From: Saccostrea cucullata
Lineage: Eukaryota
Direction: 5' to 3'
NCBI RefSeq assembly: GCF_032062105.1
Contig: NW_026932763.1
Span: forward strand, 372,001 to 436,000
DNA length: 64,000 nt
Below are positions 1-64,000 of this stretch, piece by piece. Position 1 is the first letter of the stretch, and every line of letters begins with the position of its first letter. The notes under the pieces were generated by a model, which did no database searches, was not told where the DNA came from, and saw only the letters and a program-made list of their open reading frames with translations. Made by a program: the position numbers and the translations under genes.

Positions 1-1485
1 AATGTAGGACAATGACATTCTTTTCCCTGCTATCCGTAAAATACTGATTGAATGTTCATACCTATGTGTTCTGTAGAAATACATAGCCAGAAACAGAATA
101 TCTGACGCAAAACCAAACTTACAAGACAGTTTTAGCAATGCACATACTTTATCAGTTTTGTAATAAATCTTATTTTGATATCTAGGTACATTTACACTAT
201 CTTGTATCAGAGAGGCTGCGTTCTGTAACAAAGTCGCTGTTAAACATTGTACTATAACTGCCTGATACGATGCCAGCTTACCACTTATTATTTTCTCTAT
301 GCGTTTCATGTGAAATGCAAAGTCTCTAATATGAGAAAGACCCAAGAGTAATGGCACTAATTCTACATATTTATTAATATCTGACTTGGCGCTATATCTG
401 ATTCTGATTTCGTCTGAACTCACCCTCAATGATCTGTTTAGAGAGGCTACAAGAAGGCGATCCCTCAGAGTTGGGCTTAATAGCAGACTTGAATAACCAT
501 TACAATACAAATCATACAACCGAGTAAACAATGACATTTGAACAAAACCACTGATCTTTTGTCGAAACATGTTGTTTTGTGGAATAAAAAAGTTAGAACA
601 TTCTCCAACACGTACACAGTAAACCAAAAATTTCAAACATTTCAAAAAACAGTCCAGTTAGTTATCAGGTGTCCAAATTAAGGTACTATGTGTATGGATT
701 ACCCAAAAAACAATTGTTTTCAAGAAGTATGAACAAAGAACTGGGTAACTGTTCTGAAAATTAATCACTTCCTTTAGAAAAATTTTAAGGAGACCATAAC
801 ACAAAAATTGACAATGATTCATTGAATAAACAAGCTTTTGTTCCGCCCTAGAAAAAGAAATCCTCCACTCTTCCACATTTTTAGGTGTACTGCCAATAGG
901 AACAACATGAAATCCTCCACTCAGTATTTCCGATACAACAGTTTTGGATGGCCAAACTTTATGTCGTGATCTTTGTGTCCATTGAAGGGCTAACATAGGC
1001 CAATGATGTGACTGGAAGCAATAAACAAAGTCTGATTCAAAATCTTTGCCTAAAACAAACGAAGAACAAGGCCCATGCAGGTATGGTATAGAAAGATGAC
1101 ATTTACCAGCATTCTGCATCTGCACGAAACGTAAATACTGTTTGCGAAATAGGTCACTAGAAATGTAAAGTTTGTTATTCATCACGACACAAGATGATCT
1201 GACTTCTTTTGTATCTGTTGGACTCATCAATCTTAGTTTAGTGAAACCCGGAGGTAAATCATCACACTCCATCAGAATAATAGTTTGCAGTGGGATACGG
1301 TAGAAAGAGATCTGAGAGAGATCACATATTACCTTGTGGCTAATTAACCAGCATATGAAGTCCGTATCTGAAGTCCTCAGTCTGAATCCCTCGCGCCTAC
1401 TCCCACTCCTCATTGACTGTTTTCTCACCTTTAAGTGTTCGTACCTATTTCTTATCACCTCCATTATGTCATGGACATCTCTCCT

Positions 1486-2552
1486 CGCAGCACAGTTAAG
1501 GGTACAAAAAGGAGGCGGAGCCTAATTTGTACGGGAAAACTTGACTATGACATCATACACAATATACGTCATACAACATTTCTTTAAAATACCACAAAAT
1601 GAGTTTATCTGCTAATTTAACCAGTAAGAAATCATCGAACTACAGAAAAACTTACTACAGCGTGTTGTTTTGTCGTTAGTGAAATCCCACATAACAAGTT
1701 ATGAACAAGTCACTGATCGCAATACACTTGTCAATATGACGTCATTTCTTACAACGTGACGTAGTTTGTATGCAGTGAGAGACAGATCAAGTAATATTTT
1801 CTCAACAAAATATGTATTCTCTAATATAATATATATATATTAAATATAATATAATAAAATATTATTTTCAGATAAAATATGGGCCAATAACTAGAATTTA
1901 ATGTCTTCTTCACTATTTTATTAATATATTTTCTGCACATTACGTATTAAATTGACACTGCCTTATATCTGTACGCAAGTACATCGGAGGGTAATGTGTG
2001 GGGTCTTAATAAATCGATCTAGTGCAAGGGCATAAACTCTATGGATCAAAGTAAGCTTTTACATTTCAACTATAGAACTATTAAGGTATCGGAAAAGTGC
2101 TGCGATCCTGATGAAATCTTAAAAACAATTTAATTATATCAATATTTCATGCCGCTGACCAGCAAAAAATATAGCATTCGGTCATACAAGTATAATTCTA
2201 ACAATGCAATTGCAGAATTTAGACAGGATCGCAGCACTTTTTAGAAACTACAATGCGTACTGAAAATATTCATATACTAAACTTGGAAATCTAACTCGGT
2301 TATGCCCTTGCACTAGTGGTATTTATATGTAACATCAATACTTCAAGTCCATGTGCTAAACGCGCGTGACTGCTGCATCACGTGACTAGTCTAAATATAA
2401 AATATAATTGTCCTCGATATGTAGTTATTAATCATAATTACAATTATCCGATATAAATAATGTACTAAAAATAATCGCCATTCCGATTACGAAAACATTT
2501 TTAAATACAAAATTTAGTCGATATTTCCATTGCGCACCTTAACAGTACTGCG
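1486..2552. mobile_element. Non-autonomous TIR DNA transposon (1067 bp, 2-bp TSD) inserted in the cGLR coding sequence
   Basis: 16-bp TIR CGCAGYACWGTTAAGG (14/16) at 1486-1501 and 2537-2552. CT is duplicated at 1484-1485 and 2553-2554. Removal restores the host frame. Confidence 0.85.
2019..2316. mobile_element. Nested MITE-like fold-back with two inverted-repeat pairs
   Basis: Perfect 17-bp IR CTAGTGCAAGGGCATAA (2019-2035/2300-2316) and perfect 18-bp inner IR AAAAGTGCTGCGATCCTG (2093-2110/2224-2241). Confidence 0.7.
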
Positions 2553-25021: not shown

Positions 25022-28000
25022 TCATTGATTGTAGTATATACTCGTGCCAGTGCATTGAATATGATCACAAACAGCTTTATTCACCAGATGATATTCATCC
25101 TAAAAATTACATCAATAGATTAATCCATACAAATGTTGAGTACAGAGTAAATTAAGAAACTAATTTTGTAGATATCGTAACAATTTATAAGGGATTTCGA
25201 ATGGAATGCCGGGTATTTAATATATATTTGTAACCGTTTGGATTAATTATTTAACAGGGACTTGAACTTGGCCTTTTCATTGTATAAATGACAAAACAAC
25301 TGACGAGGTTGGAACAGAACTCCGGTCTTCTGACTTGAAGTTGTCTGACAGCAGTGAAGACGTCCACACAACCATCCATGTTGATCTGTTGTATCACGTT
25401 ATGAACGGCACAGAAAACCCCACATAATGCTGCACCATCCCTGGTAAAAAATATATACGTCAGTTTAACAATAATTATGTGCATCAATTCTCCTCGTATT
25501 TTGTTTCGACATTTAATGTGATCTTAAAGAGCAAATCAAATTCTTAGATGACGCCCACTATACGTTGCAATTTATAAGTAGGATATGGAGATAACGAACA
25601 GTATAAAACTCAAGAATTTCAAAGACAAAACTTTAAAACATTTAAACCTAAAGATTGTTTATCAAAGTTAATGATTATTTCTGTATTAAACTATTAAGAA
25701 GTTAAAGTCTCTGACGTAAATAGACAACCTGCTAACAATTGTGATGGGAGTTTCTGTTTCAATATTTAGTGTGGCTGAGACCAGACTCCGAAGTTGAGAT
25801 GTGTCAAGAGGGGTTCCGGAAGAATGTATGCTGATCTTCGGTTCTATTACTGTCACGGTATGAACCTCCTCTTCATTCTAAAGAACGAAGCTTGTTGTAC
25901 TATTAAGAGTGCATGGCCGTTCTTTAATTTTTGATTCAAGAAAAAAAACTACTCTATTTAAACACGCATTTCCAAAAATACCTAAATAAATAAAATAGAA
26001 AAAAATATGTTGCTTAAGAAAGATTTAAAAAAAAAAACATGCACATTAAGTTATTCCTTCTTACATTTTTCTCCAGAATGTGAAGAGTAGTGCAGGTAAG
26101 GTCACTTTCAGATCTGTTTTGAATATGTATGGTGAAAGGGGGTACTGCATTTAAAGATGAAGGGCGTGGTAACCATGTTTTACTCTATATAAGAAAAAGA
26201 AAAATAGATTGATGCATTTAAATATTCTGCAAATAAACAGAAACCAGTAAAAAAAAAGTATACTCTGAGACAAGAAACAACTTTTAAAAAAAAATGTATG
26301 GAACATCTAACCTACCGGGGAAACAGATGTTGAAAGTCACTACCCTCTCAGGTAATTTAAGCACCATTAATCTTCTTTACTCACCTTTTCAATGGATTTA
26401 TTTTTGTGGGATGGGTTGGGAACGGATCGATGTACATGTGGTTATCTGGATATTTTATACTTAATAATTTATTATAATTATTTTTGAATGTAGAAGATTG
26501 AACAAATATTGACCATCAGCTTATATCTTAAAAAGTAGTCAAAGGGAAAAATCAAGGGGAAAAAGTTTGATATTATATTGCATATATATTTAAAAAAAAA
26601 TGAATGTTCTTCCAGGAGATAGGACATGTAGTGCCGCACAGATAAAACGGCTAAATGGACATTTAAGTATAATGTAGCAATCTGTTTATTTAAAAAAAAA
26701 AAAATCTGAAATGAGGTCAATTTCATACCAAAAAGAAGAAAAATAAAATAATCAGGGAACGGCAAAATATTAATTTTACTTTATATCACCTTCATCTTTA
26801 AGCTGATAAAGAATTATCATGTTCTTTTTGTTTATTTGGTTTTGAATTATTATATCATTTTATTTCTTTTTTTACTCTCCTGTATTGTATTTAATAAGAA
26901 TATCAGCTTTCTTGTTTAAAGTCATCATTTCGTAAGTTCTATGGTTGATACAATGACCTTGTCAGCGACTACGGTTTATCATTAAGTATAAGTCAATTGC
27001 TGACTGATATTTTTCATACTCATTGTTAGTGCATTATTTAAACATTGAATTTACGACAGATTTCTCCTTTATTTCCAGATCAAAAAGGAGCATACGGCAG
27101 GTGTGACCGGTCACCAGGGGATGCTCACTCCTCCATGGCACCTGATCCCACCTCTGATGTTTTGGAGGTCTACGTTTGCTCTGCTCCTATTTTGTATTGT
27201 TTTATGGACTTTGATATTGAATACTGCTCGTAATCTCCATATCCTTCTATCCACTTAATCTACTTTATTACATTTTGCAATCAAGAAATCGACCAATTTT
27301 TACAATTTGTCAATAAGTCGGATATTAGATTTCGGAAAAAAATAATCCCAGGCAAATTTATACTAAAAAAAAACGTATTTCTTTTTTTATATATTGCTAT
27401 TTTTCTTCTCTGACATGATTACCTCATCTTTGAAAATTATGAAAATGCTTTTTGTATATTTTGCTTCAAAAACTATTAATTTGCCTTGATACATAAGGTT
27501 TACAGAGATAACTCATCACCGTCCGACAGCTGGAATGGGTTCTCTTTGTAAAATATTTTTTTTGAATAAAGAGTACAAGAGCACAAAGTATATTAAAACG
27601 TCGTTGTTATTCACAACCTTAAATTCAATCTTTGCAAAGGAGAAGAGTTGAATTTTAGATAAGTGACACAGTTTTACGTAAGATTCAAATAAGCAACACT
27701 CAATTACCCTCCGCTCTAACCGTCATACAGAAAAACATGTATAAAATAAAAGGAAGCATCGCTCTTTCTCATTATCAACATGCATCAATTTCAACAGAAG
27801 AGTATATTTCTACAATAAAACATAAAAAGCATAACCCTTAAAATCATCTGAGCCCAAAGTAATACAATTAAAGAATTAAAATTTCAATGTTATAATTTAA
27901 TGTAATATTTTCAATATTTCCCTTTTCTTATTTATGTACACCTAACCCTGGGGCCCGGTACTTGACAATTTTTATAGAGGGATTATCGCAATCATGCTAT

Positions 28001-28850
28001 CAGTTTAATGTCCAGGATAAAAGTAGAAAATTTTATGAGATTGTACCCATTTTGACGGTTTTGGCCAAAACATTAAAGTCAAGGCCTAGGGGAAGAAGGG
28101 ACCAAAACATTCACCATATTTGTTTCTCTTCTTTTATAGGTGTTATTTGACAGATTGTTATAAATCGGTACAGCTTCTGCAGATAAGAACCTAAAAAATT
28201 TCAAAAATAACGAACGAAACCCAATTTATTACGATGGACAAACACGGATTGGAAAAGGACTCCCTAGTCGCTTAAAAGTGGAATCATTTTTAGTAAAATT
28301 ATCAATGTTTCAGCCTTATATATCATTACATACCGAATCAATCGCGTGAAGAGGATCCATACAGACGACAGTGTCAGATTCATGATCATTAAGCAGGCGC
28401 AGGAAGTCAACAGCGTCCTCTTCCGTCGGATATTGCGTCACAATAAACGCTCTACTGTTAGTGTACGACTAATAAAAGAAAAAAAAAATAATAAAACGTC
28501 AACAAAAAAGTCCTTGATCTAAAATGCAGACTAATTTTCTCTTGCAATAATGCGAAATATGGTTATAATGCAAACAATGAAGATTATATATTAGAACGTC
28601 TTCATAGCAATACACGTCGCTATAGATTTTTAGGAATAAATTTACAACAATTTCAAATGCTAAGATCTTTAATACTTACTGGAACAGATACTGCATTGAT
28701 GAAGTTTCCTCGTTTAAGGACGGTAGAAGAAAGATGAACACTGTATTTATCCACTAATTTAGAAAAAAAATAAGAAAATTCTCGGATGTATGTAGACAGT
28801 AAAATAAATGATCCTTCATCATTGAAGGTTGTCAGAGTAATATCATTCCC

Positions 28851-28907
<57 letters not shown>

Positions 28908-31900
28908 AATATTTTAAGTCTTATCTTGAACATAATGGGTAAGTGAGGTGTTAATATATATCAAGGATACACCATGGCTAAATTAATTGGAAAATAGAAA
29001 GTTTCATATTTTTGTACTTTTTTTCTAAAGACAGAAATTCTGTGTTTTGGGAGAATAATATTGGGGGAAAACAGAAAATATATAGATTAAATTAAGATTT
29101 TTAAATATTTTTATATCATAGGGACTAACTTTCAGAGGGAAGGTTTAGGATATGCATCCAAAAAGCTGAAAAACCTGTGATTTTCACATAATACGACTAA
29201 GCCTTTTCATAACATGCACCATACACTAAGGGACGATGGATTAGATATTTAAGAAAGTACACATAAGAGAAACAAATAGTTTCTAACTACAGTTGTATAT
29301 CTGGAAATATAAGATATTTATCCTATATATTATTCAATATGTGACATTTGGAATTTTCAGTATGTTATCAACTAAATTCAGACAAAAGCTCTGGCATGCA
29401 AAGTATTAGGATTTTTTTTAAATTGGCAAAACGATCCTTTCTTTATGAGAAAAAAGAATGAAAAAAAACAAGATATATAGGTAAAATGTTAGGTACATGA
29501 ACTTAAAACGCTTTATCATGCGTTTTGTGACCAATTATTGCATGTATTAAGTAAATTTAATATATAAAATACAATATAAAATAACAATCAAAAGTTTTCT
29601 ACACATCAGCAAACCAAGTATTGCTGTTATGTTGCAATACATTACTCGTTGGCTCACATAATAGTGAAGAAGAAAATTGGTAACAGAATGAAATAAATAA
29701 AAATGTAACCTACGTGGCAATAAACGACTGGAATGGATATCCCCACAACCATCCCTTGCCAGCTTGAAATCATCTTCATTATATTTAGGTTGTATTTTCA
29801 TTAAAAGCTATTTATAAAAACAGTTAAACATTTTATAAAACCGTAATTATAAATTCTTGATAACGATAAGAATTTTACTCCAACAAGAGATGAAAGGGTT
29901 AATTTTTGAAAAGGGACAAAGAATTTATTTTTTCTCTTAAATACCATTAAAAATCAATAAACATCAGAAAGACGCATTCTAAACAAAACCAGTTAGACCT
30001 TTGTTTTCTTCATAACTGGAAAGTTCTATTCTCCTAAAATGTCTTACTTTGCTTGAAAACTAGACGCTAAATGCTATTTTGTTCTGCCTGCTAATCATTA
30101 TTTTGAATCTGAATAAGAGTACTGATATCACAAAACATTTTTACTTATCGAATTTTGATGTGTTTCAATGGTATCATGATGTGTGCTGCTATCATTTTTA
30201 AAAGAAAATGCTTAATTAAATAAAAATGAAAAGCGGTTATATTTATCATAATTATTTTCGATCACATAAATAACAGAATTAGAAATAAAGAAATCAAACG
30301 TCGGTTTAAGATCAACACCCGTATACATATGGTTAAGTCAGACGTATTTTATTCATTCACTTAGGCTTATCTTTCTTTTTATCATAACATATCATCATCG
30401 ACGTCATTACAAGTAATGGAAGCATTGTTTTCATTATTATTATTTTTTTTGCAAGGGTTTTTCTTTAAGGAATGATTGTCTTATTTTTCGATTTCAAGAT
30501 GTGATCAATCGAATGGCTTGCGTGATAATTCGCATAAACTCCGAAGGCGTGTATGCCTAAAATTATCACGCAGACCAATCGATTGATCATCGTCATAAAA
30601 TTGAAAAATCTGACAGTTATTCCTTATATGTACATGCTTTGATTCCGCCAATCCACATGCTCCATGCCCTGTTTCTCTTTAGCTGTTAGTCTCGCCCTGC
30701 ACGAGTCTCAGACAAAGACATTGGAAATGTAAATATTTTGTAATATAAGGTGTACCTGAAATTCTTTTCGAAGCGTGTTCTGATTTGCTGGTTTGTCTAC
30801 TGTCATGGCGTTTGCATTTGCCGTAAATTCCTCAATTGTTTTGACCATCACCGGCGATTTGAAGATTTCGTTCAAAGAAAGAAATATGGTCATATATTGT
30901 TCCTGAAACAAAAATGTAATGTTAAATCCAAAGAAAAAAACATACAGGCCTGCATAATAGTTCTTCGTTCGTTTATTAATATTTACTTATGGATTTTGGC
31001 TGTTAAAAATTATAATTTTAATAATGTTTAAGTTATTTCGAAAGTGAAAAGTTCTTGCAATCTACTAGGAAGCTAGGATTGGAAAACTAGGTTCATTATC
31101 GTAAATAATTATAATCACTTCATTGTTTTAATCTTTGGAATTTTTTTACTTGCATTTTTTAAGCTAACATAGCAGATTTTCAGTAATTACACTCAAAAAG
31201 AAAGTAATTCGATGAATAGATAAATTAACTGAAGATACCAATTTTTTTAATCATTTTTTTTTATTCATATTAATAAATAATTTATTGTTATTATTTACTA
31301 ATGAGAGTTATCAGTAATTCTCCTCTTTATACACAATTTATTATTAAAGCGGTAGAGGGAAAGCTGGATAAAATGTACATTTTTTTAAATAATAATTTTA
31401 TTAGGCTTACATAGGTTTGGACCATATTCATCCTGCTTTCTCTCATCTTCTTGACATACTCTGCGACGTTAACTTTCCCTGTCTTTCTTCCTATCTTGTT
31501 CAGAACGTCTATTGCTATGTATGTCCCGGTTCTTCCTATTCCTGCACTTAAAAGCATAAAAAAAATACTCTAATTAGTTGTTTAACGTCCTCGAATTTTT
31601 AACTTCTAGAAAAGACACAATTTACTGTAAGCAGGTGCAACGGGGGTAACCACAACAAATCGTACATTACAATGAAAACAGACCGAAATATAAACGAATC
31701 TTTTCTTCTTTTTTGCGGAAAGGTTTAACCAGGATTATAGTCGATTTTAGTCTTTGACGAACGTGTCATTACCATTTTGATCATTAAAATTTATCAAAAG
31801 AAAAGTTTTATCCAATATTATTTCAAAATCATTTTATTATGCAGTTTTACCTGCAGTGTACATCAATTGGAGAGTCATTCTTATTGGTGCCTGTTTTCGT

Positions 31901-34900
31901 CACGTGATAAAGGAACACAACAAGGCAGAGAGGTTCAGGAGTCCCATGGTCGGGCCAAGCAGTGTAATGGTATTGTGTTACAAAACGAGGCCTTTTTGAC
32001 TGTAATTTAAATATTTTCATAAAATATTTCAAGTCATTTATTTTAATTTTCTGATTTTTAATACACAAATCAAAACAGAAATGGGAACATTAAGCCTCAC
32101 TGGATAACCTCATTTCTTTGAAATTTCTAATACTAAAAATGACGGGCGGGTTCTTCCGCTAATAATGAATCTAGACTCAGTGATAAAAATGTCATTGAAA
32201 AGAGCAATGCAATACTTAACGTCATAAATAATACCATTACTAATTGCATGCTTAGATTATTTCCAAACTGTGCATGAAGGCGGAAGTTAATGAAAGTAAA
32301 ATATGAAAGAGTTTCTCTATCGTGGTTTTCATGAGATGAAACCCCATTCGGTCTTTTAAGCAATGATGTATTATCAACTGCTTTACCTCCTCTATATGCT
32401 AGTAGCTCACCTCCTTGTCGTTAATGTTAAATTTACGAATACTGTAGAATGCGTACTCCTTTTCCTCTATCATTTTCACAGACATCTTTCCGTAGATTAT
32501 GTTCTGGTTAACTTCCGGCCAATACTTCGCACATTTGGTCTAAATAATGATTTAAAAGATTGTAATAAAATAAATATGGAACATTGAATTTAAATTTCAT
32601 AATGTACATATTTTCTTATAATTCCTTTTATTTCGGTTAATAGAACAAACACATATTTGAAATATATGAAGTTTTATGGAGTTAGAAAAAAATGGGAACA
32701 CTTTCAGATCCATGTTACCTTATTCCCTTCTTTCAGGTTGGTTAACATAACAATGATGGATACATGTTCCTGCCAAACCATTGTCCAAAAATCGTTTACC
32801 GTGTTCTGTTTTGGTCCTAATCATATAGCATGGAAATTCTCATAAAATATATCGCAGATGACATTTAAGATTCTTACAGACTGTTACACAACATTGTAGA
32901 ACAAGCATTTCCCTAATTATCAAGCTATATTAAACTGATATTCTTAGCTTAACTTTAACTTTAAATTTTAAACTTAACAAAGGGATGTGTTAAGACACTG
33001 TTTGAAATACTTGTTGTAAGTCGAAAAACAATACATACTCATATATAATTATAAAACAGAAGTATCTGAAGATATCGAAACTGTACTAGAATGGAAAAGA
33101 AAAGTAGCATTTGGAACTGAAGCTCTGCAAAAATAACACACGTAATAATTATCTCTATTTGCGTGTCTTTTTGAGACAAGATTGCAATAAGACTATAATA
33201 GCTTACTTATCTCTGACAAGTGGATCTGAAAATTGACAATTTTGTATTGTGTATCAATAATGATAATAATGTAATTTACCTTGGGCAGCAATATATTGTT
33301 GTTCTTGCTTTGCACCCTAAAAAAGCAACTCTACTTATCATATTTTGCATTAAAAACAATAAAAAGAGCATACGATAATACAAATGAATCTAATCAATCA
33401 GGAAAAAAATTCCTATATGCAGCTTAAAGAGAAATGTGTATGGAGCTGTATATTTTAGTTTTATAAACTAAGATTTTGGGAGGAAAGGTACTATATACAT
33501 GTGAACTAAATTGATGTTAACAAGCATCGCCTTATTGTTGATAAGGAAAATACATACGTTGTTTTTTTTGTGTTTTTTTTTTACGTTAAGCTTTTCTTTA
33601 CCTGTATGTAATTAGCGTTTATGTAATCAGATGCCGAATCAGTTTTAAGTAATATTCTGGAGTGGTCATCTGGATAAAAAAAAGATATAGAATATAAATT
33701 AAGATATCTTTTAATGCAATCCAATGTATGTTACCATAAAAAAGAATACAACAATGCAATCTCGAAAAAAATGCAACGATTAACTAATTATGCATATGGA
33801 ATGAATGTACATATATTTGTAAATTCGATAAAAAAAAAATACAACCAAGTTAAATACTAACATGGAAACGTTGTCTTATATCTATTCTTGAGAAGATTTT
33901 CTTCTCTCTTTCCAGCTTCGCACTTGTATCTTTCTCCATATGGCAAAGTCTTTAAAAAATAAATCACAAACATAAAGCTTTTGATCCCCTTCTATTTTGG
34001 GGTGTCTATGTATACATGTTTGTGCCGTACAGTTTTCTTATTATTGTACTGTTAAGACAGATAATGTGTAAACAGTGTGTTTATATTTAAATCACCAATA
34101 CTTTTAACATGCAGAGAAAAAAATCTTTAAAACGATGCCCCTTTTCTCAAAGAAATGCAAATACAGGACTATAATGGTTGTATTTTTCTCAGGTGCCTAC
34201 TTACCGCATATTCCCTCTGAAACCCATCATCTTTATTCTTCCTTTTTTCAGCTATATATGTATCCAGTTGCTCTAGAGGTATGTCCCGAATCACTACTTC
34301 GTTTGCATAAAAATCTCCGTAAGGATTTTCCGAATGTATTTGCTCATCAACATCTTCATCAACTTCATCATTTCTTTTTTGAACGCTTAGCAGTTTTTGC
34401 ATTCTGGTTTTCTTACTTTTATTTCCTTGATCAGTTGATGACCAATGATTTGAATTAATGCTTGAGAAATTTGTTTCGGGTATTTCTTTATTTGCTAAAA
34501 TAAGTAACAAAGCAATTAAATTTATTCCTGTAATAATGTGATGAATCAGAATCAATGTGTTATGTAAATAACGACTCACAATTTTGAGTTCTGTTTGTAT
34601 CTGCTTTGGACCTGTTATCTTTCTTTAAACTGCGCCTTCTATAGAGAAAACCGAAAATGATTAAAATGCAAAGTATCGAAATGCATGTGATATATGTAAA
34701 ACACGATTAACAAGAATGAAAAGTATAACTGTACAACAAATGATCATGAATGCAAATCTAAAACGTATATTGACCGTTTTAAAGTAAGAACTGCTATAAC
34801 AACGACGATACACGCGATAGTAATTCCAGAAACCCCACCAATGATCGTCCCAATATTGTTACCATTGCCTTGTTGAGGAGACGTTTTCTAAAATATTAAT

Positions 34901-37900
34901 ATTCATAATGATAAGATTTTGATATTATGCATATACAAAGTTTTTTTTAATTTCCCTAATAAAGAATAAAATTCATTAGATGCTATTTATTTATTTCATT
35001 GAATATCCAAAACCAGATTGATTCGTGCATATTGACCAATTTCGAGTATTACGACTATTGGCTAGATTCAGAGGAATTCCTAAAAGTATTTTTTCTTACA
35101 TCAAAAAGAATTTTCCGATATAATACATGTACATATTCAAAAAAAAAATAATAATTTCAATATTGGAATGTAATTTTAAAAAGACGTATTTAGGTTTGAA
35201 ATCTTCAAACAAAAATCTAGAGATATGATTCATAGTGAATCGAAGTAAAAAAAAATAACTATGGTTAACTGTGGTATACTTTTTCAGAAAAAATCGGGTT
35301 CAGAGATACATGGTTTACTGTACCGACATTGCAGGGCATTCTCCATTATGTGGATTGCAAGTATTATTTACACAGTGGCTGCTACAGTTCTTTAAGCAAT
35401 TCATGCCATACGTTCCTGGATCACATACTATAAATGAAATACTTATTGAATATATTTCATCTTACAGTTACATTCGTAAAATATAACCTTTTCTCTTCAA
35501 CAGAAATGCACAGATTCTTCTTTCCCCTGAGAAAATATGTGATGTGATAATAAAAATACCTGTTAAACATAATAAGTCTTTATATCCCTGAATACATCCA
35601 TTTAAACATGTTCCATTGATATTGTGACATTTATCTCCATCTAGACACTTGCCACAGTGTTGACTGCAGTTCTTGCCGAACCTTTTGTTTAAACATTCTG
35701 TATATAGATATAAATATATTAAATATTTTCCTCTTAATAATATATATAAACGACCTTTTCAAATTAAAGATAGAGGAATCAAAGTTAAACGACGTATGAT
35801 TTCTTTTTTTTCATATATAATCTTTTTTAACTTTTTTTCCCATTTTAAACATAGCCCCAAAACTCTAAATGTATATGTAATATGAATAATGCATTATTTA
35901 TTTTTTTGATAATGCTTACCATTTTTGCACTGAAGTCCCTCAAAACCAGGCTGACAACCGCCCAAACATTCACCAGTTGTTCGATTGCATCTGCTAGGTA
36001 CACCACAATTTTCATCACATTGTTCCATACAGGTTATACCGAATTTTCCATCCGAACAAACTAATACCAAAATAAAAGAAAATAACAAAAAAACTTACAA
36101 ATCTAGTATCTTACTTAATTTTTAGAGTATTTGTGTCATGATTATTAAGCAAACAAATGTAAATTTTAATTATTTTAAAACTTTTATGGACTCATGGAAA
36201 TGTTACCGTCTTTACAAAGATCCCCTTCAAACCCAGAATCACAGCCTTCGAGACAAGACCCATTGATGTGATGACATTGTTTGTATTCCTGACACGCTCC
36301 ACAACTCTCTCCACATACAGAGCCGTATGTTCCGTTATCACATTCTATTAATTGGGTGGAAGGGATAGTTGAAAAGAATGAAAGATTTTTTTTTCCTAAG
36401 AAGATCATTTACATAATCGCCTGCATTTAATTTAAAACATTTTAATTTTTTTAAAAACATTTTACAACATTTTAAATGCCAAAGCTTTGCTAAAACACGA
36501 AGAAATTTATTCTTAAGTAGATAGTGGCGTAGGAGGCATATTCTAAAGTAAATGCATAGAGGTTTATTACTCGAGTATAAGATTGGTTATTCAATTTATC
36601 AAAAGCAATGGGAAGAAAAAAATGTTTGTTATAGTTATAGATTCCATTAATTGTATAAGACGGTTTATCTAAAATAGTTCCATTATGATTCTGCTATATT
36701 TAAATAATTTGCTTCGTTGTAACACATCAATTAAATAGATAAATATTTAGTTCATATCGTAAATCATAAGTTACCTACGTCACAGTCAGTTACGTCAATT
36801 GCAAATTACCCCAGGTGACGTTGATTGTAAAATTGCTCAATTTGATTGAAATTTTAATTGAAAGGAAGGGAATGAAATGTACCTTGTTCTCGCCATTTTT
36901 TTTTTCTGATTGAGAAAGTGAATAATGCATGTCTTTCAAAAATCCTGAAGTCATTAATATGATTATGTTTTTTTTTTTCATTTGTGACCCAGAAATATGC
37001 ATATTCCGTTATCTTTTGCAAAGCGTCAATTAGCTAGCAAAATAATATCTTAGCCATCAGACAATTACATGTATGTTTTATAGCAGTTATAAATTGTATA
37101 TAAAGTATCAAAATCAGTGAATCCCAGGGTCGTAAACAGCATTTTTTTTATATTGTTTATCTATTAATTTATTGAAAATATTAATTGCAATCCTAATTAA
37201 ATATAATTCAATTCAACTGGGGTTCCTTACTCTTTTCCTTGTTCTTTTTTATTTTATTTTACTTTTGCTTTTTCATACTTACGTAGTTCACACTGATGTC
37301 CCTTGTACCCAGGTTTACATCCCAGACATGCACCTGTCTCTATGTGACAATAACGACAGTTTGTATCAGGACAAGGGAGAGAACAATCTGGACCATAGAC
37401 TCCTACATTTTGGCAGCCTTAAAAGTAAATGAAATCCATCTAAGTATTCATAAATGATTTAGAGAATTTGGAAATATGTTTAATGTTATAAGAAATATAG
37501 GCTTTAATATTTTTTTTTATTCATAATTATTTAAATTTTTATGATGAATTAAGGAATTGATGCCATTAACATTGCATGCTAACTTTTAGTAATTTCGATA
37601 TAAAAAAACACCTGAGTGCTAAAAAAAAGTATATGTAAAGTGTATACCATTAACTTCAACTTCACACAATTCAACGTGTGCATATTGGGACAATTCCCAG
37701 GCATTTTCACGTGAAGGCTGGGGTCTTTCATTGTAATATATGACGTACTGGCCATGAACAGGGCACCTTATATTGACAACAGCCGGTATTGTGGCTCTAG
37801 TGTACTTTTCATCGTGTAAACATAGATAACCATGATGTCTGTTTGTTGTGTTGGAAACATAAACGTAAAATCCCAAAAATCGGGTAGTGTAGCCATTTGA

Positions 37901-40900
37901 AAAACCTAAAAAGAATACATTTATCTATATAAAGCTAAATTCCTTTCCATGTTTGTTTTTTTCACCGGTAATCATCAATTGGCTATTCTTCCTTTAACCT
38001 ATAATTGTCTTGTAATTGAGTGAAAAGTAACATTAGTTTCTCAAGAATTATTAATTCTAAACTATTGAAGAAAGGACTTTTATTATTTATGCTGTTTCAC
38101 CGGATATTTTAATCTGTATTTCCTCAAGTAATTGATATTCAGCAAATTTTGTAGTCGATTTAACATCAACATCAGCACTTATTTGTCACTGTTAACATCG
38201 CAGTACTGTTAAGGCAACACTTTCTGTAAAAAGTAATGGAATCCGATGCATATATGTTTAAAAGTTTTATTTTTCAGCAAGACACTCTTGTTAAAATGGC
38301 TTTATGGTATCTTGATTGATTGATTAATTGATTGTATATTGTTTAAGGTCCCCCTCGAGAATTTTTCACTCATGGAGACGTCACCGTTTGCCGGTGAAGG
38401 CCTTCAAATTTAGACCTATACTCGGCACTCAGGGCCATTGAGCAGCGAGGAATCTTTATCGTGCCAACGCCTGCCACTGACACGGGGCCTCGGTTTTTAA
38501 GGTCTCATTTGAAGGACCCGCAACTTTCACTTTAAAGTGCTTAGAGCATGGCAAAGGAACAGTCGCTACCTATTTTAACGACTAAGTCAGTCGAGGCCGA
38601 GATACGAACTCACGACCTCCCGATCACGGAGCGAGCGCTCTACCGACTGAGATACCGTGAACGGTTTAAGGTATCTTGAAGAGTATGTCCATCGCTTTTC
38701 ACATCGGTAATTTTTTTTTTGACTTTATGTGACTCTTAAGTCACACGGACTCCGGTTTAAGTCAAATTAAACAAAATCTGCAAAGTCAATGCAAACAAAA
38801 AAATAACGGCAAAATGTTTTAGGAGTTGCCAATGTATGTATACTTTCTAAAACGTAATGCTCATTCAGTTAGTTGTTCAGCTAAAACTGACAGTAGTGTA
38901 TGAAAAATAGGATATTTTCCTACATGTTATTTCATCGCGATTTATAAATTACCTAAAAGATTACACGTACACAGATATGAGCACGACTTTTTTGAAAATT
39001 TTACAATAAAATAAAAAAAATGAAAAAAAAACCTTTTAGCCCTTACACTTTTTGATTAAAAAATAAATTCTGATCCAATTGTTTTGTAAAACACGCTTTG
39101 ATTGGATATGTCACTGATGTTTGAAACAGATAAATGAACATTAAGGAGTGAAAGCTTTTCATTGTGAAGCCATATAGGGCCATACTATAATATTCAAATC
39201 AATATCATGAATAGAAATATATCTATATTATAGGATTAAACGTTCTTTTTGAAAAATTTATCGATGTGTAAACTCTTGACATTTTACTCACAAACTAAAT
39301 AAAAGTGCGAAGCACTTTTATGTTAAGTTTGTGAGTAAAATGTCAAGAGTTTACACATCGATAAATTTTTCAAAAAGAACGTTTAATTCTTATAATTCCA
39401 ATATCGAATTTTTAAAAATATTTAAATTATTTCTCTTTGAGGCCTCCATACAATCTGTTATTTATGGACGGCGTAGGAATACATTTTACCGTAAAGGAAC
39501 GTAATCGAGATGAATTTCGATAGAGTTCAACTTAAATTGTCAAAACAATCGATAAATAAACTTATAATAACTAATCAAATGTTGTTTAAGTCAACAAATA
39601 TCTTAATTACGAGTTTACTTCAGAATAATTCGTCTTTGACCATGGCCATGTTGACATAAGCAACAACTCTCATAGGGAAAGTTGCAGACCGACGACGCCT
39701 TCAATTTGCACTTTTTTTTCAAATATTGAAACAATATAGAAAGTAAATATGAATTTGATGCTAATAGGGCAAGAGTTTGAGGTACGTTTCTTTTCCCTGT
39801 CAAAACGATACAGACTGAGCTTATTTTCTACGTTTGAACGTTGAGACAGCGATTTTTAAAATTCACACTCGTGATCGGACAGTGACATAAACATTTTCAC
39901 GGCGTCCATCAGTTAGGCAGTCTAGTATGTTGCCAGTTTTGTTTAAGCCCTAATATTAAATTTAAAGTTTCTTGTATTCATTATTTAGCCAGAACAGACC
40001 CAGAAATAACTGCTTTCATTGTTTATACGATAACCTAGTAGTGTCATCAAGAAAGTAGTTCTGATTGAAAGAATTTATCGATGTGTAAAAATTTTCTGGA
40101 ACGTGTTCTCGTCCAATCAAAACACAGGAAATCAATAGATAAAATGAAGATTGGAATTATATGTATATATATTTGTATCTTTATGTGATGGTTTTTAAGC
40201 AATTTATTACATTTTTCTTCTATTTTTTAGAATAAAGGATATGTGGTTGCATGCTAATTTAGAAACAAAACTCTGTGATAAAAATGATGAATTCAACTTT
40301 TTTATCGTCAATTCCTTTAACTATGCAACAATATACCTTAAGAATCTCAGTTGATTCGATACACAAGAGCATGTTCAACGTATGAAGAATTCCTAAAAAG
40401 AAGTTAATTACCGACAGAGTCTTTTAGATTTTAGATTTTTAAGTCATCATTTCGTAACTATTTATACACTTAATTGACGACGGATTTTCCTGTATCCAAA
40501 CAGTTTAAAAAAGGGTGGAAACATTTTTTTTAGGTTCAGAAAGTCTATCCTGTTATCTTTCTTTCTAAATATATTTTGCTTTAATACATATTCTCCCACG
40601 ATTATGTTTTGAAATGTATAGAAACCTAATGTCTCTTTAGATGCACAAGTGATATAATGACCCGATTTTATTTCAAACTGGGTATGAATATATTGCTCAC
40701 AGAAACTCTATTTTAAATTTTATTGACATTTTATGCATCCGACTGTATATATTTGATGTTCCCTTTTTATTACAATTATATTTATCTCACATTTTAATTT
40801 ACACAATACCAAGTGTGCAACAAAAATTTTCATTTGATTTAAATATAACCACAACGCATTTTTTAGAGTATAAAAGCGCTGAATAATTACCCCATGTGGA

Positions 40901-41436
40901 ATCGTCTGTCCTGTAGTATATTGTTATATCATGAATGCTGTGGATGGACGTCAAGTTTACCCACCAAGTCAGATTACTGTACCCATCAGCTGATATCGTG
41001 CATTGTCCTCCGTAGGCTGTTAACACACTTTTTAGTCCATCAACAGCATTACTGGAATCAAAGGTAGCTTGTCCGTAATTTCTATTGGAACTGTAGTAAA
41101 CATGCGCTTGGTACGTTGGGTTATTGAAAGCTATATTTTCTAAAAATGAATAAAATGTGAAATAATGTGGTCATTTGCTCACTACCATATTTTTTTTAAA
41201 GAATTATAATCATTTATTAAATCTTACTAAATTACATGAACGGTTTAGAAAATGTTTCGTTATAAGATTTCATTTATTTCAAATTTATTTATTTTTGAAG
41301 AAGATTTTTCTTGAAAAAAAAAATGTTGCTTCAATTCCTGAAAATTTATTAATATTCTCATAATACGATTTTAAAAGATCTTACCATATCCATAAACAAT
41401 AGGTAGTACTGTTATTATCAGACCCAAAGCTAGCAT
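25022..41436 (-). CDS. Receptor-type protein tyrosine phosphatase: signal peptide, F-type-lectin-like domain, 5 EGF-like exons, TM, PTP D1 (active), PTP D2 (degenerate); 1104 aa
   Basis: 26 GT-AG coding exons in consistent phase, 3315 nt total: 41385-41436, 40891-41139, 37648-37905, 37283-37417, 36207-36344, 35920-36060, 35560-35697, 35324-35427, 34775-34887 (TM), 34580-34638, 34205-34494, 33862-33949 (KNRY), 33602-33669 (DYINA), 33280-33316 (YIAAQG), 32719-32816 (DFWTMVW), 32411-32539 (KCAKYWP), 31851-31999 (WPDHG), 31411-31546 ([10 protein letters not shown] across the junction), 30756-30902, 29714-29807, 28680-28753, 28334-28468, 26065-26184, 25729-25877, 25305-25440, 25022-25099. Start context GCCGCCATG. 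Confidence 0.93.
26890..27240 (+). mobile_element. Penelope-like retroelement 3' fragment in a PTP intron
   Basis: Degenerate FRKFYG*YNDLV at 26928-26963, followed by the GGTGTGACCGGTC...GGGGATGCTCACTCCTCC...CACCTGATCCCACCTCT block. Family assignment is from recall. Confidence 0.6.
28855..28907. repeat. (CT)n(GT)n compound microsatellite
   Basis: Direct reading. Confidence 0.95.
30466..30626. repeat. Imperfect ~160-bp palindromic element with CCGAAGG apex; partial relative at 50362-50468
   Basis: TAAGGAAT...ATTCCTTA ends, arms GATCAATCGA..TGCGTGATAATT / AATTATCACGCA..TCGATTGATC, apex at 30541-30547. Confidence 0.75.
38316..38664 (-). mobile_element. tRNA-derived SINE, second family (different head, shared Deu-like domain and tail)
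   Basis: tRNA-like head at about 38590-38664, AAACCGAGGCCCCGTG core, GAAAAATTCTCGAG..TTAAACAA(TCAA)n tail. 15-bp TSD TTTAWGGTATCTTGA at 38301-38315 and 38665-38679. Confidence 0.88.
39228..40161. mobile_element. Element beginning with a near-perfect ~165-bp palindrome
   Basis: 62-bp perfect arms 39235-39296/39326-39387 and GCGAAGC apex at 39307-39313. TATAATTCCAAT (39391) is inverted at about 40150-40161. Third AATTTATCGATGTGTAAA at about 40072. Confidence 0.7.
40270..40460 (+). mobile_element. Penelope-like RT C-terminal relic
   Basis: Broken translation [11 protein letters not shown]...CNNIP...[19 protein letters not shown]. Confidence 0.65.
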
Positions 41437-60168: not shown

Positions 60169-60439
60169 CATTTACAAATACAGTTATCTATATTTACTAT
60201 AGTTAAATATATTTTTTTTTGTTTTTTTTTTATTTTTTTGTTCTATCAATGACTATTTGCATAATTACTTTATCTGAGTGTAAATAGTTCCTATGACGTA
60301 CATGTTTGTCACAAAAAAGCCCAAGAGAAATTAATGCAGAGACATCTAGCATTAAGTCTGGGATTGTTAAATCTATTTATTAAAAACTATTTGTTTTAAA
60401 CTTTGATGTTGAAAATTAAATTATATAAAAATGAATCTG

Positions 60440-60445
60440 TTTATT
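60440..60445 (-). promoter_or_regulatory. Putative polyadenylation signal of the EGF-repeat receptor
   Basis: AATAAA about 90 nt downstream of the stop codon. Confidence 0.5.
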
Positions 60446-60539
60446 ACTGCGAGACATATTCGGTCAACTTCGCGGCGCCTCGCTGCGCTCGCTATAACTT
60501 TGGCCAATATGAATATAAGATGTGAACGTTCAGATCCGA

Positions 60540-63116
60540 TCATAATCTGATGGTAGCGCCAGTTCCCCCCAGCTCCTGATATCTGTTCTTGTCGTCTTCA
60601 TCAATTTTATTAGAGCTAATTCCCATGTTAAATGATGTTGACTTTGTCTCTTTATCTTCTTTATACATCGATTTCCTTATTTTTCCTTTCAGATTCCATC
60701 TACAGAGATATTCAAATTGTGTTGAAAATTGTCAGTTTTTTCCCTAAACAAATCTAGGAATTTTGAAATATGAGAGAGAGATAAAGAGAAGGAGAGAGAG
60801 AGATGTTTGCTTGTCCTATATATTCATCAAAGATAACTTACCTATAGATACAGATGTAGGCAATTAAAATGCCGATTATTATTAGACAAACACAGAGAGA
60901 GGCAAGAACACCATTAAATCTTGCGAGACAATCAGTATCAATAGTTTTCTCTGCAACTGCATAGAGAAAAAAAATCATATCGATAATTTTGGATCTATTG
61001 ATGTAACATAATATTCCTTTATTTCAACGTTGTGATAACATTAAGTAGATTATTAACTATTAACCTTGTAAACACATAGCACCCTGCCATCCACCAATAC
61101 ATCCTTCATTACAATATCCTGTCACGTGGTTGCAGTCACGTGATGACTTGCAGAAAATGCTGCATTCTTTTTTGCAATTCTCTCCATAAAATCCTGCCTT
61201 ACACACTGTCATTTGAAGTAAAAGGTTCATTTAATTTACAAAGAACTATGCTAAATGAAATATTTTGATTTCTGTTTTAAACAGTGAAATATAATTTCTA
61301 CCCATTAAAGGTAATGTGTTAAAAGTATAAAATCCCTACTGACATACTTATGCCTTATTTTCTACATTTTATTCTAAATTATGAAAGTTAAATTACTTTC
61401 ATTGCATAATATTCCTATATATCCATCCGAACATATTCCAGGACAAGAACCATTTACATAGTGGCAGTTTGAGTCCTGACAGAATCCACACGAATTAGAG
61501 CAGTTTTCACCGTACTTATTTTCCTTACAAACTGAAAAAAAAACATTTCTATTTATTACTTTTTCGTCCATGAATTTCATTTCATTATCCTTTTTTCATA
61601 TATTCTCGTACATAAGAAATTGAATTGTCTTATCGAAAATTCAGTTCTTAGTAATAAAAAAAATCAGGAGAAAAATAGCATTAAAGTTTAAAAGCCATAT
61701 TAAAACAGTAATCTGGAACCTTCTTCGCATCGAGGTCCCTCCCAACCTGGTTGACATCCTCCCTCACATTCTCCTGTCGTTCTGTTACATCTAAATGGTA
61801 CACCACAGTTCCCATTACAATTTTCATTACAGTTGATGCCAAATTTTCCAAGAGAACAACCTAATATAAATTTCTACATTGTATGCCGTTTGTCTGCTAA
61901 AGTGTTTATGTATTGTTAAATGATATGACCGATGATAATTAGTCTGGTAGAGTGTTTACGTATTCTAAAATGACAAATAGAGCCGATGATAAAAAAAAAT
62001 GCTAGCTATCAATGCTTAACTTAAATTATTAATTTTTTACCCGTTTTACAAAAAAATCCTTCAAATCCTGCATCACATCCTTCAAGACACGACCCATTGA
62101 TGTGGCGACATTGTTCATATCCCAGACAAGCTCCACAGGTCTGTTCACAATTCTGTCCATATCCTCTGCTGCATTCTGTTAAAACCAATTAATAAACTAC
62201 AGTGTAATTCAATTAAATATTGTAGAGAAATGTGTTTAATAAAAATAACTATTGCAACACCCTAGCCCAAAGATGCCCAGTGAGAAGAATTTGCACCATA
62301 AAAGAAACCTACGTATCAATATATTTAGCTCTGAATGCTCATTTAAGGTCAAAATTTGAAGGCCGTGAGGTATGATATCTCAAAAGAAGTCTATCAATGG
62401 TGGCTTAGTTCAATTATATCATTTCATATCAGCTTAAGGTGTTGAAGGTAGCGATCATCAAATAAGCATAACCTAAAAAAAAACCACTTTTATTTAATAC
62501 TTTTTCATCAATGAATTTCATTTCACTATCCTTTTTTCATATATTCTCGTACATAAGAAATTGAATTGTCTTATCGGAAATGCAGTTTTAAGTAATTAAT
62601 AGAAACAGGAGAAAAATAGCATTAAATTTTAAAAGCCATATTAAAACAGTAATCTGGAACCTTCTTCGCATCGAGGTCCCTCCCAACCTGGTTGACATCC
62701 TCCCTCACATTCTCCTGTCGTTCTGTTACATCTAAATGGTACACCACAGTTCCCATTACAATTTTCATTACAGTTGACGCCAAATTTTCCAAGAGAACAA
62801 CCTAATATAAATTTCTACATTGTATGCCGTTTGTCTGCTAAAGTGTTTATGTACTGTTAAATGATATGACCGATGATAATTTGTCTGCTAGAGTGTTTAC
62901 GTATTCTAAAATGACAAATACAACCGATAAAAAAAAATGCTAGCCATAAATGCTTAACTTAAATTGTTAAATTTTTACCCATTTTACAAAGCAATCCTAT
63001 AAATCCTGCATCACATCCTTCAAGACAGGATCCATTGATTTGGTGACATTGTTTATACCCTAGACACGCTCCACATCTCTGTTTACAATCCTGGCCATAT
63101 CCACCACCGCTGCATT
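60540..63116 (-). CDS. MEGF10/Draper-like multiple-EGF single-pass receptor, 3' portion; short tyrosine-motif tail, no PTP domain; 5' exons beyond the window
   Basis: Phase-1 EGF exons 62979-63116, 62661-62801, 62041-62175, 61720-61860, 61397-61531, 61065-61205. TM exon 60842-60956 (GVLASLCVCLIIIGILIAYICIY). Last exon 60540-60699 (...IDEDDKNRYQELGGTGATIRL* as assembled). Confidence 0.88.
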
Positions 63117-63125
63117 CTGTTAAAA
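61560..63125. repeat. Intragenic duplication of an EGF exon pair, period 941 bp
   Basis: About 61560-62185 matches about 62500-63125, including introns. Confidence 0.92.
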
Positions 63126-63447
63126 CCAAATAATTTAATTTCACTTGTATCAAGCTATTTCATTGGCTGACGCATTCAGAGGAACATATAATATCTTGGA
63201 TAACATAACTTGCCTATGTCACAATGAGTTACGTCAAAAACGTATTACTCCACTTGACGTTACTTTTTAACTAATGCTCAATCTGAAGCCTTATTCTGGA
63301 GGAAAAACTTATTGTCTATACTGAAATTAAATTATAAGGAATGAAGCTAATGTTAGGTGTGGTATTTGGGGGGGTACCAAGTTTTATTATGAGCAAAGAG
63401 CGATAACTCTAATATTGTTTTTGTAACTTTTCGCTGAGCTCTTCTTT

Positions 63448-64000
63448 GTCAGAAGTTAGAATTTGGTGCCTCGTCCTACAATAAAAGTGTAAACACCTAA
63501 CATCTATCTTATTTTCTCCAGGTAATTATTTAATTAGCACATTTATATGCAATGTATATTACCGAACTTATTATTGAAATCCATTTGATATGTTTCTAGT
63601 CAGTATATGTTAGGTCACACAATTATTAACTTGAATTATGAAAATTGTTGACTAGGCCAAGCACATGTGCGGCACATGTTCCCGCCATTTGTACTTTTCA
63701 GTATTCTATCATTTTTAATTAGAATGTCGTATAATTTACATAATTCATAAAGGTCAGATGTCATTAACTGTTATATTGTACATGTAAGGATTGTAATTAT
63801 ACTTTATTAAGCTTTATTGAATGAATTATGAAATTACCGTATATACTCATCTGAATGCGCACTGTTGAATTACGTGCAGTTTGTATGAAATTACCGTATT
63901 TCCTCTTGTAAACACATTTTGTAAAATTGAGTCAGAAGTTAGAATTTGGTGCCTCGTCCTACAATAAAAGTGTAAACACCTAACATCTATCTTATTTTCT
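63448..64000. repeat. Identical 70-bp direct repeat, period 483 bp, second copy cut by the window edge
   Basis: 63448-63517 equals 63931-64000. Confidence 0.9.

What the first reader, a model, noticed from the sequence alone, without database searches (positions are those of the whole stretch)
60530..60600. ITAM toggled by one base in a G homopolymer
Seen: with the assembled G6 run (plus-strand C6 at 60565-60570) the tail reads DEDDKNRYQELGGTGATIRL*. With G5 it reads DEDDKNR-YQEL-GELALPSD-YDRI*, a canonical YxxL-x8-YxxI ITAM ending exactly at a stop (60530-60532). SDYDRI also fits the ITIM pattern SxYxxI. Known: a single YxxL after an acidic patch is a hemITAM (Dectin-1, CLEC-2). Inference: G5 is ancestral, and G6 is either a homopolymer assembly error or a real allele converting ITAM to hemITAM-like.
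Basis: partly seen in the sequence, partly recalled or inferred. Interest (0 to 1): 0.7.

Follow-up and report, generated by a model that had tools for sequence, protein, structure and literature searches.

The report
Frameshift in dead oyster receptor copy
The extra G that breaks this oyster receptor's activation motif lies in a gene copy that already carries an early stop codon and lacks two exons, and no related tail examined has that extra G, so it is likely an assembly slip or harmless decay rather than an immune on/off switch.

Summary
The sequence observation is right. C6 lies at 60565-60570, the assembled tail ends YQELGGTGATIRL*, and the neighbouring frame gives YQEL-x8-YDRI*. G5 is the normal state: 12 of 12 paralogous tails in this genome lack the extra G. 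Spliced contigs about 98% alike, from 4 samples in 3 studies, all show one C fewer. No G6 was seen elsewhere. The switch is not supported. The gene (signal peptide, lectin, EGF repeats, TM, tail) has an in-frame TGA at codon 63 and lacks lectin exon 2 and most of EGF exon 1. A sister contig shares the TGA and the missing exons. A Gypsy element sits in an intron. The G6 tail also fails the hemITAM consensus (1 of 3 acidic positions). Whether G6 is assembly error or neutral germline slip is open (about 50:45). The family ITAM is real and conserved. A neighbouring gene with a closely related head ends in phosphatase domains; the scan has noted this ITAM/phosphatase pairing before, in other oyster DNA.

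The parts
60530..60699 (-). Last coding exon (cytoplasmic tail) of a lectin-EGF-TM receptor gene copy. The family frame ends YQELGELALPSDYDRI* (TGA 60532-60530); the assembled frame ends YQELGGTGATIRL* (stop 60542-60540).
   Evidence: splice joint 60699/60842 in public contigs
60565..60570 (-). G6 run (C6 on the plus strand), one base longer than in all paralogues and in the near-identical public transcripts
60842..60956 (-). Transmembrane exon (AEKTIDTDCLARFNGVLASLCVCLIIIGILIAYICIY)
   Evidence: joints
61065..61205 (-). EGF-like exon, the last before the TM exon
   Evidence: joint 60956/61065
61397..61531 (-). EGF-like exon
   Evidence: joint 61205/61397
61720..61860 (-). EGF-like exon (Pfam EGF_laminin, E 0.00087, below the curated cut-off); second copy of a tandem two-exon duplication
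62041..62175 (-). EGF-like exon, second copy of the duplicated pair
62661..62801 (-). EGF-like exon, first copy of the duplicated pair (blocks 61529-62193 and 62470-63134 are 91.8% identical)
62979..63116 (-). EGF-like exon, first copy of the duplicated pair
63351..64000 (+). 5' LTR of a 7.5-kb Gypsy-type LTR retrotransposon inserted antisense in an intron of the gene. It continues to G000:C14900:442809, with target-site duplication CTAA. The gene's broken 5' part lies beyond it: lectin exon C14900:445026-445280 with TGA at 445146-445144, and signal-peptide ATG at 445575.
25254..41436 (-). Neighbouring receptor gene with the same kind of head (signal peptide, two lectin exons, EGF exons, TM) followed by tyrosine-phosphatase domains. 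Context, not part of the frameshift itself.

Best explanation
The G6 run is a one-base slip in the last exon of a gene copy that has an in-frame stop at codon 63 and lacks two exons, so this copy likely makes no receptor and the slip likely has no signalling effect. Intact members of the family are single-pass receptors (signal peptide, galactose-binding-type lectin domain, EGF repeats, TM, tail of about 55 residues) that end in YxEL-x8-Yxx[IL]. They are predicted to be tyrosine-phosphorylated on clustering and to recruit Syk, by analogy with oyster CgIgR. This copy has decayed: a nonsense codon, a deletion, a retrotransposon insertion and the +1 G. The +1 G is either a consensus error of the assembly (my odds about 0.5) or a neutral germline slippage after the gene died (about 0.45); the data here cannot separate the two.
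For: Shown: 12 of 12 paralogous tails lack the extra G (8 have G3, 2 have G2, 2 have G5), and 11 of 12 keep YxxL-x8-Yxx[IL]. A genome-wide pattern for the G6 form matches 1 place, this one. Contigs about 98% alike from X1, X2, X4 and X8 (3 studies) each show one C left out at the run; in X2, X4 and X8 that accounts for 15.58 of 15.6, 8.9 of 8.9 and 8.1 of 8.1 of the depth. 0 of 156 fetched proteins carry the GGTG frame, while 22 of 156 carry Yx[ED]L-x8-Y. The gene has TGA in lectin exon 1. Sister contig C17283 has the same TGA in an exon 254/255 identical, also lacks both exons, and has further stops, so the TGA is not a sequencing error. No lectin-exon-2 match lies between the lectin exon and the EGF exons even at E 20, and only a remnant of EGF exon 1 with a mutated donor is left. 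The Gypsy element has a CTAA duplication. Tail lesions occur in 3 of 6 copies with other damage and 0 of 8 intact-looking copies (Fisher p 0.055; classes assigned by hand). Residual indel noise in the assembly: two near-identical contigs differ by 12 gaps against 9 substitutions in 7,974 columns, mostly at homopolymers. Inferred: null allele, Syk recruitment by intact members.
Against: No reads of the source individual were found (no run held half of the words), so G6 is neither confirmed nor excluded as real. Only 8 of 24 listed runs were laid, and contigs drop rare variants. In X15 part of the depth over the run comes from pieces not shown. Length errors at short runs are rare here: 1 of 81 runs of 5-7 bases differed between the near-identical contigs, and the retroelement frames are open over 5.4 kb with 12 runs of 5 or more, which weakens the error reading. 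Real length polymorphism is also rare: 0 of 30 runs of 5-7 bases at 2.7% divergence. The 3' half of this copy is not otherwise decayed: its EGF and TM exons are open and it is about 98% like transcribed sequences, while it is only 85% like the sister pseudogene. It may therefore be a recent recombinant with a live copy. The stop-bearing exon is frame-symmetric (255 nt), so skipping it would keep the frame. The Fisher test is not significant.
Confidence: 0.9

Rival explanations
1. G6 is a real, expressed allele that turns a two-tyrosine ITAM into a single-tyrosine hemITAM-like or decoy tail. The stop-bearing lectin exon would have to be skipped, giving a lectin-less EGF receptor.
For: The run is a G5, which can slip; 2 of 12 paralogues also have G5. 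The 3' exons are open and near-identical sequences are transcribed. The stop-bearing exon is frame-symmetric. An NCBI model of the upstream neighbour, P0004, omits lectin exon 2, so exon skipping in the family is conceivable. Short-run errors are uncommon in this assembly.
Against: G6 is seen nowhere else. The copy has a stop at codon 63, shared with a plainly dead sister copy. Acidic residues fill 1 of the 3 hemITAM positions. In PMC3576117 (passages) an FcRgamma ITAM with one tyrosine removed did not signal unless DED was placed upstream of the YxxL.
Confidence: 0.04
2. The contig is chimeric: the 3' half belongs to a live ITAM gene and was misjoined to a dead 5' half at the retrotransposon or the tandem repeats. 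G6 is then a plain assembly error in a working gene.
For: Identity to sister contig C17283 drops from 97% (5' part) to 89% (intron) to 85% (3' exons). The 3' half is about 98% like transcripts. A 7.5-kb element and 146-bp tandem repeats lie at the transition.
Against: The element has matching CTAA flanks. The sister contig is colinear through the same interval without the element and has the same exon set. Mosaic identity is also what unequal crossover in a tandem family gives (general knowledge).
Confidence: 0.06

Closest known systems
CgIgR of the Pacific oyster (PMC6994640; passages seen)
   Same: Oyster single-pass receptor with tail EGDYTELGQCDPETPYEKL, i.e. YxELG and an 8-residue spacer as in this family; reported to recruit CgSyk and promote ERK phosphorylation.
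   Different: CgIgR has five Ig domains outside. This family has a lectin domain and EGF repeats. Syk binding is untested for this family, and this copy is a pseudogene.
[quoted passage not shown]
   Same: Clustered single-pass MEGF10/SREC-like receptors with galactose-binding/fucolectin signatures, either without (1B) or with (1C) two phosphatase domains. This is the same pair of architectures as this gene and its neighbour.
   Different: The word ITAM occurs 0 times in that paper's main text; its supplements were not read. Orthology was not tested.
hemITAM C-type lectin receptors CLEC-2, Dectin-1, CLEC9A (PMC3576117; passages seen)
   Same: The G6 frame leaves a single YxxL with acidic residues somewhere upstream.
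   Different: Those receptors have acids at -2, -3 and -4; here these positions are N, K and D. They are C-type lectins, and type II membrane proteins (topology recalled). This one is type I and carries an upstream nonsense codon.
Drosophila Draper / CED-1 / MEGF10 (Draper's ITAM cited in PMC9546547, passages; the alternative splicing of Draper tails is recalled, not from a call)
   Same: Multi-EGF single-pass receptor with an ITAM. NCBI names intact members of this family 'multiple epidermal growth factor-like domains protein 10'.
   Different: This family has a lectin head and a very short tail; no EMI or NPxY motif was noted in P0004 or P0006 (read by eye). The name is an automatic label and orthology was not tested.

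Membership tests
ITAM (family frame, G5) | Yxx[I/L]-x(6-9)-Yxx[L/I] (consensus as given in PMC9546547) | tested here: met
   YQEL-GELALPSD-YDRI, spacer 8; same pattern in 10 of 10 tails of alignment A2
ITAM (family frame, G5) | Cytoplasmic position after a single TM segment | tested here: met
   TM exon 60956-60842 is spliced to the tail exon in public contigs
ITAM (family frame, G5) | Acidic residue at -3 of the first tyrosine (D/ExxY, as given in PMC6994640) | tested here: not met
   Position -3 is K here (DKNRY); the acids lie at -4 to -7
ITAM (family frame, G5) | Both tyrosines conserved under selection | tested here: met
   Y40, E42, L43, G44, S50 and Y52 are invariant in 10 of 10 tails at 65% mean column identity; 22 of 156 fetched proteins have Yx[ED]L-x8-Y
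ITAM (family frame, G5) | Double phosphorylation and binding of the Syk tandem SH2 domains | not testable with these tools
   Needs a bench assay; shown only for CgIgR
ITAM (assembled frame, G6) | Two tyrosine motifs | tested here: not met
   Only YQEL remains
hemITAM (assembled frame, G6) | Single YxxL in the tail | tested here: met
   YQEL. The tail exon also holds MYKE, which is not a YxxL.
hemITAM (assembled frame, G6) | Three acidic residues at -2, -3, -4 of the tyrosine | tested here: not met
   N, K, D: 1 of 3 (sequence; definition from PMC3576117)
hemITAM (assembled frame, G6) | Expressed, dimeric receptor that signals through Syk | tested here: inconclusive
   No transcript with G6 was seen and the gene has an upstream stop; signalling is untestable here
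ITIM | [I/L/V/S]xYxx[I/V/L] | tested here: met
   SDYDRI fits and S is invariant in 10 of 10 tails, but it is the second half of the ITAM; recruitment of SHP-type phosphatases is untested
Scavenger class F-like lectin-EGF receptors (subgroup 1B type) | Signal peptide, galactose-binding/fucolectin domain, multiple EGF repeats, one TM, no phosphatase domain | tested here: met
   Architecture from exon maps. Pfam F5_F8_type_C_2 and EGF_laminin hits are weak and below the curated cut-offs. In this copy the lectin domain is half deleted and interrupted by a stop.
Unprocessed pseudogene | Disabling lesions independent of the feature in question | tested here: met
   TGA at codon 63, shared with a second contig; lectin exon 2 and most of EGF exon 1 missing
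Unprocessed pseudogene | No full-length translatable transcript from this haplotype | not testable with these tools
   No run of the source individual was listed; both lays covered only the 3' exons

The most novel reading that the evidence does not exclude
The G5 run is a slippage site that yields a real, segregating G6 allele. It is expressed through skipping of the stop-bearing lectin exon and gives a single-tyrosine decoy or hemITAM-like receptor, which tunes an oyster system of ITAM receptors paired with phosphatase receptors that share heads.
Probability: 0.04. Interest if true: 0.65.

Novelty: new member of a known kind. Interest (0 to 1): 0.16.

Why it matters
The single-base switch most likely does not exist, so the finding as posed matters little. 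It is a reminder to check the whole gene before reading a tail frameshift as regulation. What survives is the family: an expanded, fast-turnover set of oyster lectin-EGF receptors with a conserved ITAM, auto-annotated as MEGF10, in which 6 of 14 examined copies show damage. They sit beside phosphatase receptors with related heads. If these prove to be activating and opposing partners, they would be a molluscan counterpart of vertebrate paired receptors, relevant to oyster disease resistance and to the snail resistance clusters of similar architecture. That idea is untested, and the scan has already noted it elsewhere.

Tried and rejected
Looked for an allelic haplotig carrying the same tail in the assembly: none; the best other match is 85% identical. 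Sequencing runs: no RNA holder listed on record, and no run held half of the words. Raw reads X18 and X19 did not bridge the G run (paralogue reads, clipped). X20 had 4 clipped reads that continue after five C, which fits G5, but they carry other differences and may come from a paralogue. X15 (DNA?) has its longest contig about 93% alike, so it was not counted as an allele. Alternative acceptors in the last exon: none gives both tyrosine motifs with C6. Tested whether the EGF-1 remnant is a common repeat: it matched only itself and the end of EGF exon 1 of a paralogue. Tried to separate error from real slip by run-length statistics: 1 of 81 against 0 of 30, not decisive. A second homologue search on the TM and tail region gave only 2 proteins among 36 candidates. 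Literature: ITAM + oyster + EGF + tyrosine phosphatase gave 2 unrelated papers; ITAM + bivalve + MEGF10 gave 0; ITAM + Crassostrea + Syk gave 9; some searches were seen as listings only, apart from the papers opened from them. I found no paper on this family's ITAM in these searches; the library lacks most subscription journals. The scan's earlier notes had nothing near this place.

Full report
Observation. The plus strand has C6 at 60565-60570. On the minus strand the last exon starts at 60699 after a CTGTAG acceptor. In the frame handed on by the TM exon it reads RWNLKGKIRKSMYKEDKETKSTSFNMGISSNKIDEDDKNRYQELGGTGATIRL*. The neighbouring frame after the run reads GELALPSDYDRI* with TGA at 60532-60530.

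What the gene is. The window is G000:C14900:372001-436000 of a 1.17-Gb animal assembly. A protein found on a contig of the same length as ours carries the NCBI label Saccostrea cucullata, 'multiple epidermal growth factor-like domains protein 10', so this is an oyster. Upstream of the tail lie a TM exon (60956-60842) and six EGF-like exons up to 63116; two pairs of these are a tandem duplication, 91.8% identical. Public contigs and reads confirm the joints 60699/60842, 60956/61065 and 61205/61397. Intact relatives have a signal-peptide exon, two lectin exons (weak Pfam F5_F8_type_C_2 hit), EGF exons, TM and a tail of about 55 residues.

Which frame is normal. A search of the own genome with the tail scored 14 candidates and gave 13 matches: this copy and 12 others. 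All 12 lack the extra G: 8 have G3, 2 have G2 and 2 have G5 at this place. Eleven of the 12 keep YxxL-x8-Yxx[IL]; L011 has a stop in place of the second tyrosine. L007 and L008 are near-identical, so these are 11 distinct genes. The next gene upstream on our contig ends YEEL-x8-YEII. In an alignment of 10 tails (9 of the 12 plus the upstream gene; L004, L008 and L011 left out) both tyrosines, E-L-G and the serine before the second tyrosine are invariant. A pattern specific for the G6 form matches 1 place in the genome, this one. Among 156 proteins fetched, 0 carry the GGTG frame and 22 carry Yx[ED]L-x8-Y. By a loose rule whose chance rate I did not measure, 44 have an ITAM-like tail, 29 have phosphatase motifs, 19 a single YxxL/I, 27 no TM and 37 none of these.

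Other individuals. Of 24 listed runs none held half of the sampled words, so the source individual was not among the indexed holders. I laid 8 of the 24. Contigs that span the tail and 3' UTR with few differences come from X1 (6 other letters over 60358-60699), X4 (6), X8 (6) and X2 (4 over 60361-60585): four samples in three studies. Those of X1, X4 and X8 are spliced to the TM exon. Each has one C left out at the run, i.e. G5, and in X2, X4 and X8 the deletion accounts for essentially all depth. X20 had 4 clipped raw reads that continue after five C, possibly from a paralogue; X18 and X19 did not bridge the run. X15 (DNA?) had 3 contigs with a base left out, its longest about 93% alike; the rest of its depth came from pieces not shown. 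No G6 was seen. Contigs drop rare variants, so a rare G6 allele is not excluded.

The copy is broken upstream. Beyond the window the gene has a signal-peptide exon at C14900:445575 and lectin exon 1 at 445280-445026. That exon has an in-frame TGA where paralogues have a glycine codon. It is codon 63; one search printed one residue too many because it took the donor three bases too far. Lectin exon 2 is absent even at E 20, and only the 3' end of EGF exon 1 remains, with a mutated donor. A Gypsy-type element of 7.5 kb (RT, RNase H and integrase hits; LTRs 661 of 675 aligned bases identical; CTAA duplication) sits antisense in the next intron. A second contig, C17283, holds the same two-gene arrangement at 95-97% identity in the 5' part. 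It has the same TGA (exon 254/255 identical), lacks the same exons, has no Gypsy element and carries four more stops in its EGF exons. The nonsense codon is therefore real and older than the split of the two copies. Against a simple story: the 3' halves are only 85% alike, and ours is open and about 98% like transcribed sequences, which points to recombination with a live copy (or, less likely, a misjoin). The stop-bearing exon is frame-symmetric and could in principle be skipped. Across the family, 6 of 14 copies have stops, partial exons or no head within the fetched DNA. Tail lesions fall in 3 of those 6 and in 0 of the other 8 (p 0.055; classes set by hand, and some 5' ends were not fetched).

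Error or real slip. Two contigs 99.66% identical over 7,974 columns differ by 12 gaps but only 9 substitutions, mostly at homopolymers and once as a compensating pair inside a tail exon. This looks like residual consensus noise (inference). But only 1 of 81 runs of 5-7 bases differed, and the retroelement frames on our contig are open over 5.4 kb containing 12 runs of 5 or more, 6 of them G/C. Real differences are as rare: 0 of 30 runs of 5-7 bases at 2.7% divergence. The two causes cannot be told apart here. I put error at about 0.5, neutral slip at about 0.45 and anything functional at about 0.04.

How it works. Shown: the family tail is a conserved YxEL-x8-Yxx[IL] behind one TM segment. Inferred: clustering by a glycan ligand leads to phosphorylation and Syk recruitment, as reported for oyster CgIgR, whose ITAM EGDYTELGQCDPETPYEKL has the same core and spacing (PMC6994640, passages). 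For this copy, normal splicing ends translation at codon 63, so the tail frame is likely irrelevant. Even if made, the G6 tail is a poor hemITAM. CLEC-2, Dectin-1 and CLEC9A have acids at -2, -3 and -4, and an FcRgamma ITAM lacking one tyrosine was silent unless DED was added upstream (PMC3576117, passages). Here those positions are N, K and D. The SxYxxI match is real and conserved, but it is the second half of the ITAM; the ITAM and ITIM consensus used are those in PMC9546547 (passages).

Context. The gene at 41436-25254 has the same kind of head followed by phosphatase exons (Pfam Y_phosphatase at or above the cut-off in 5 of the 6 exon pieces of its phosphatase region that were scanned; an [10 protein letters not shown] motif can be read across an intron). 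Lectin exon 1 of the dead ITAM copy is 217/250 identical to it, against 149/235 to 167/243 for four other family members, and 1.2 kb including introns aligns at 78%. This suggests head sharing between ITAM and phosphatase receptors (inference; no tree was built). Snail resistance clusters hold the same two architectures (PMC13712769, passages; ITAM is not mentioned in the main text; supplements not read). Three earlier AI notes of this scan report the pairing in other genomes. They are leads, not support; I had noted the pairing before the look-up.

Verdict. This is an ordinary broken copy in a birth-and-death receptor family. Interest 0.16.

Noticed in passing
window 25254-41436 (-): Receptor tyrosine phosphatase gene (signal peptide, two lectin exons, EGF, TM, tandem PTP domains). 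Its first lectin exon is 87% identical to that of the dead ITAM copy, against 63-69% for other family members: possible paired receptors with head exchange.
   Followed up: partly
L011 (G000:C22351:61762-61896): Paralogous tail with a stop in place of the second tyrosine (YQELGELALPSD*), a natural single-tyrosine tail; but only partial TM and EGF exons remain upstream, so it is probably a gene fragment.
   Followed up: yes
L004 / G000:C17283:6856-10200: Sister pseudogene: same early TGA and missing exons, four further stops, and a one-base insertion at the tail stop that extends the frame by 12 residues. 97% like our copy at the 5' end but 85% at the 3' end.
   Followed up: yes
window 63351 to G000:C14900:442809 (+): Gypsy-type LTR retrotransposon with long open gag and pol frames, LTRs about 98% identical apart from a G run of 7 against 16, and a CTAA target-site duplication; absent from the sister contig.
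   Followed up: partly
L015 (G000:C14900:449770-458560, -): Intact-looking upstream family member ending YEELGQRTLPSEYEIIQKLS*. Its NCBI model P0004 omits lectin exon 2 although an open exon is present in the DNA.
   Followed up: partly
protein P0005: An unnamed 199-residue protein with four tandem YQELGE-x6-Y units, showing that the same motif also occurs as a multi-ITAM array.
   Followed up: no
window 1-1521 (-): Mab-21/cGAS-like nucleotidyltransferase frame (Pfam Mab-21, E 5e-12) interrupted by an in-frame stop at about 658-660; possibly another pseudogene.
   Followed up: partly
L007 / L008 (C11818:1-8000, C20099:36000-44000): Two contigs 99.66% identical with more indels than substitutions, including a compensating indel pair in the tail exon (ESQK against EVEK): likely redundant sequence showing the assembly's residual indel noise.
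   Followed up: yes
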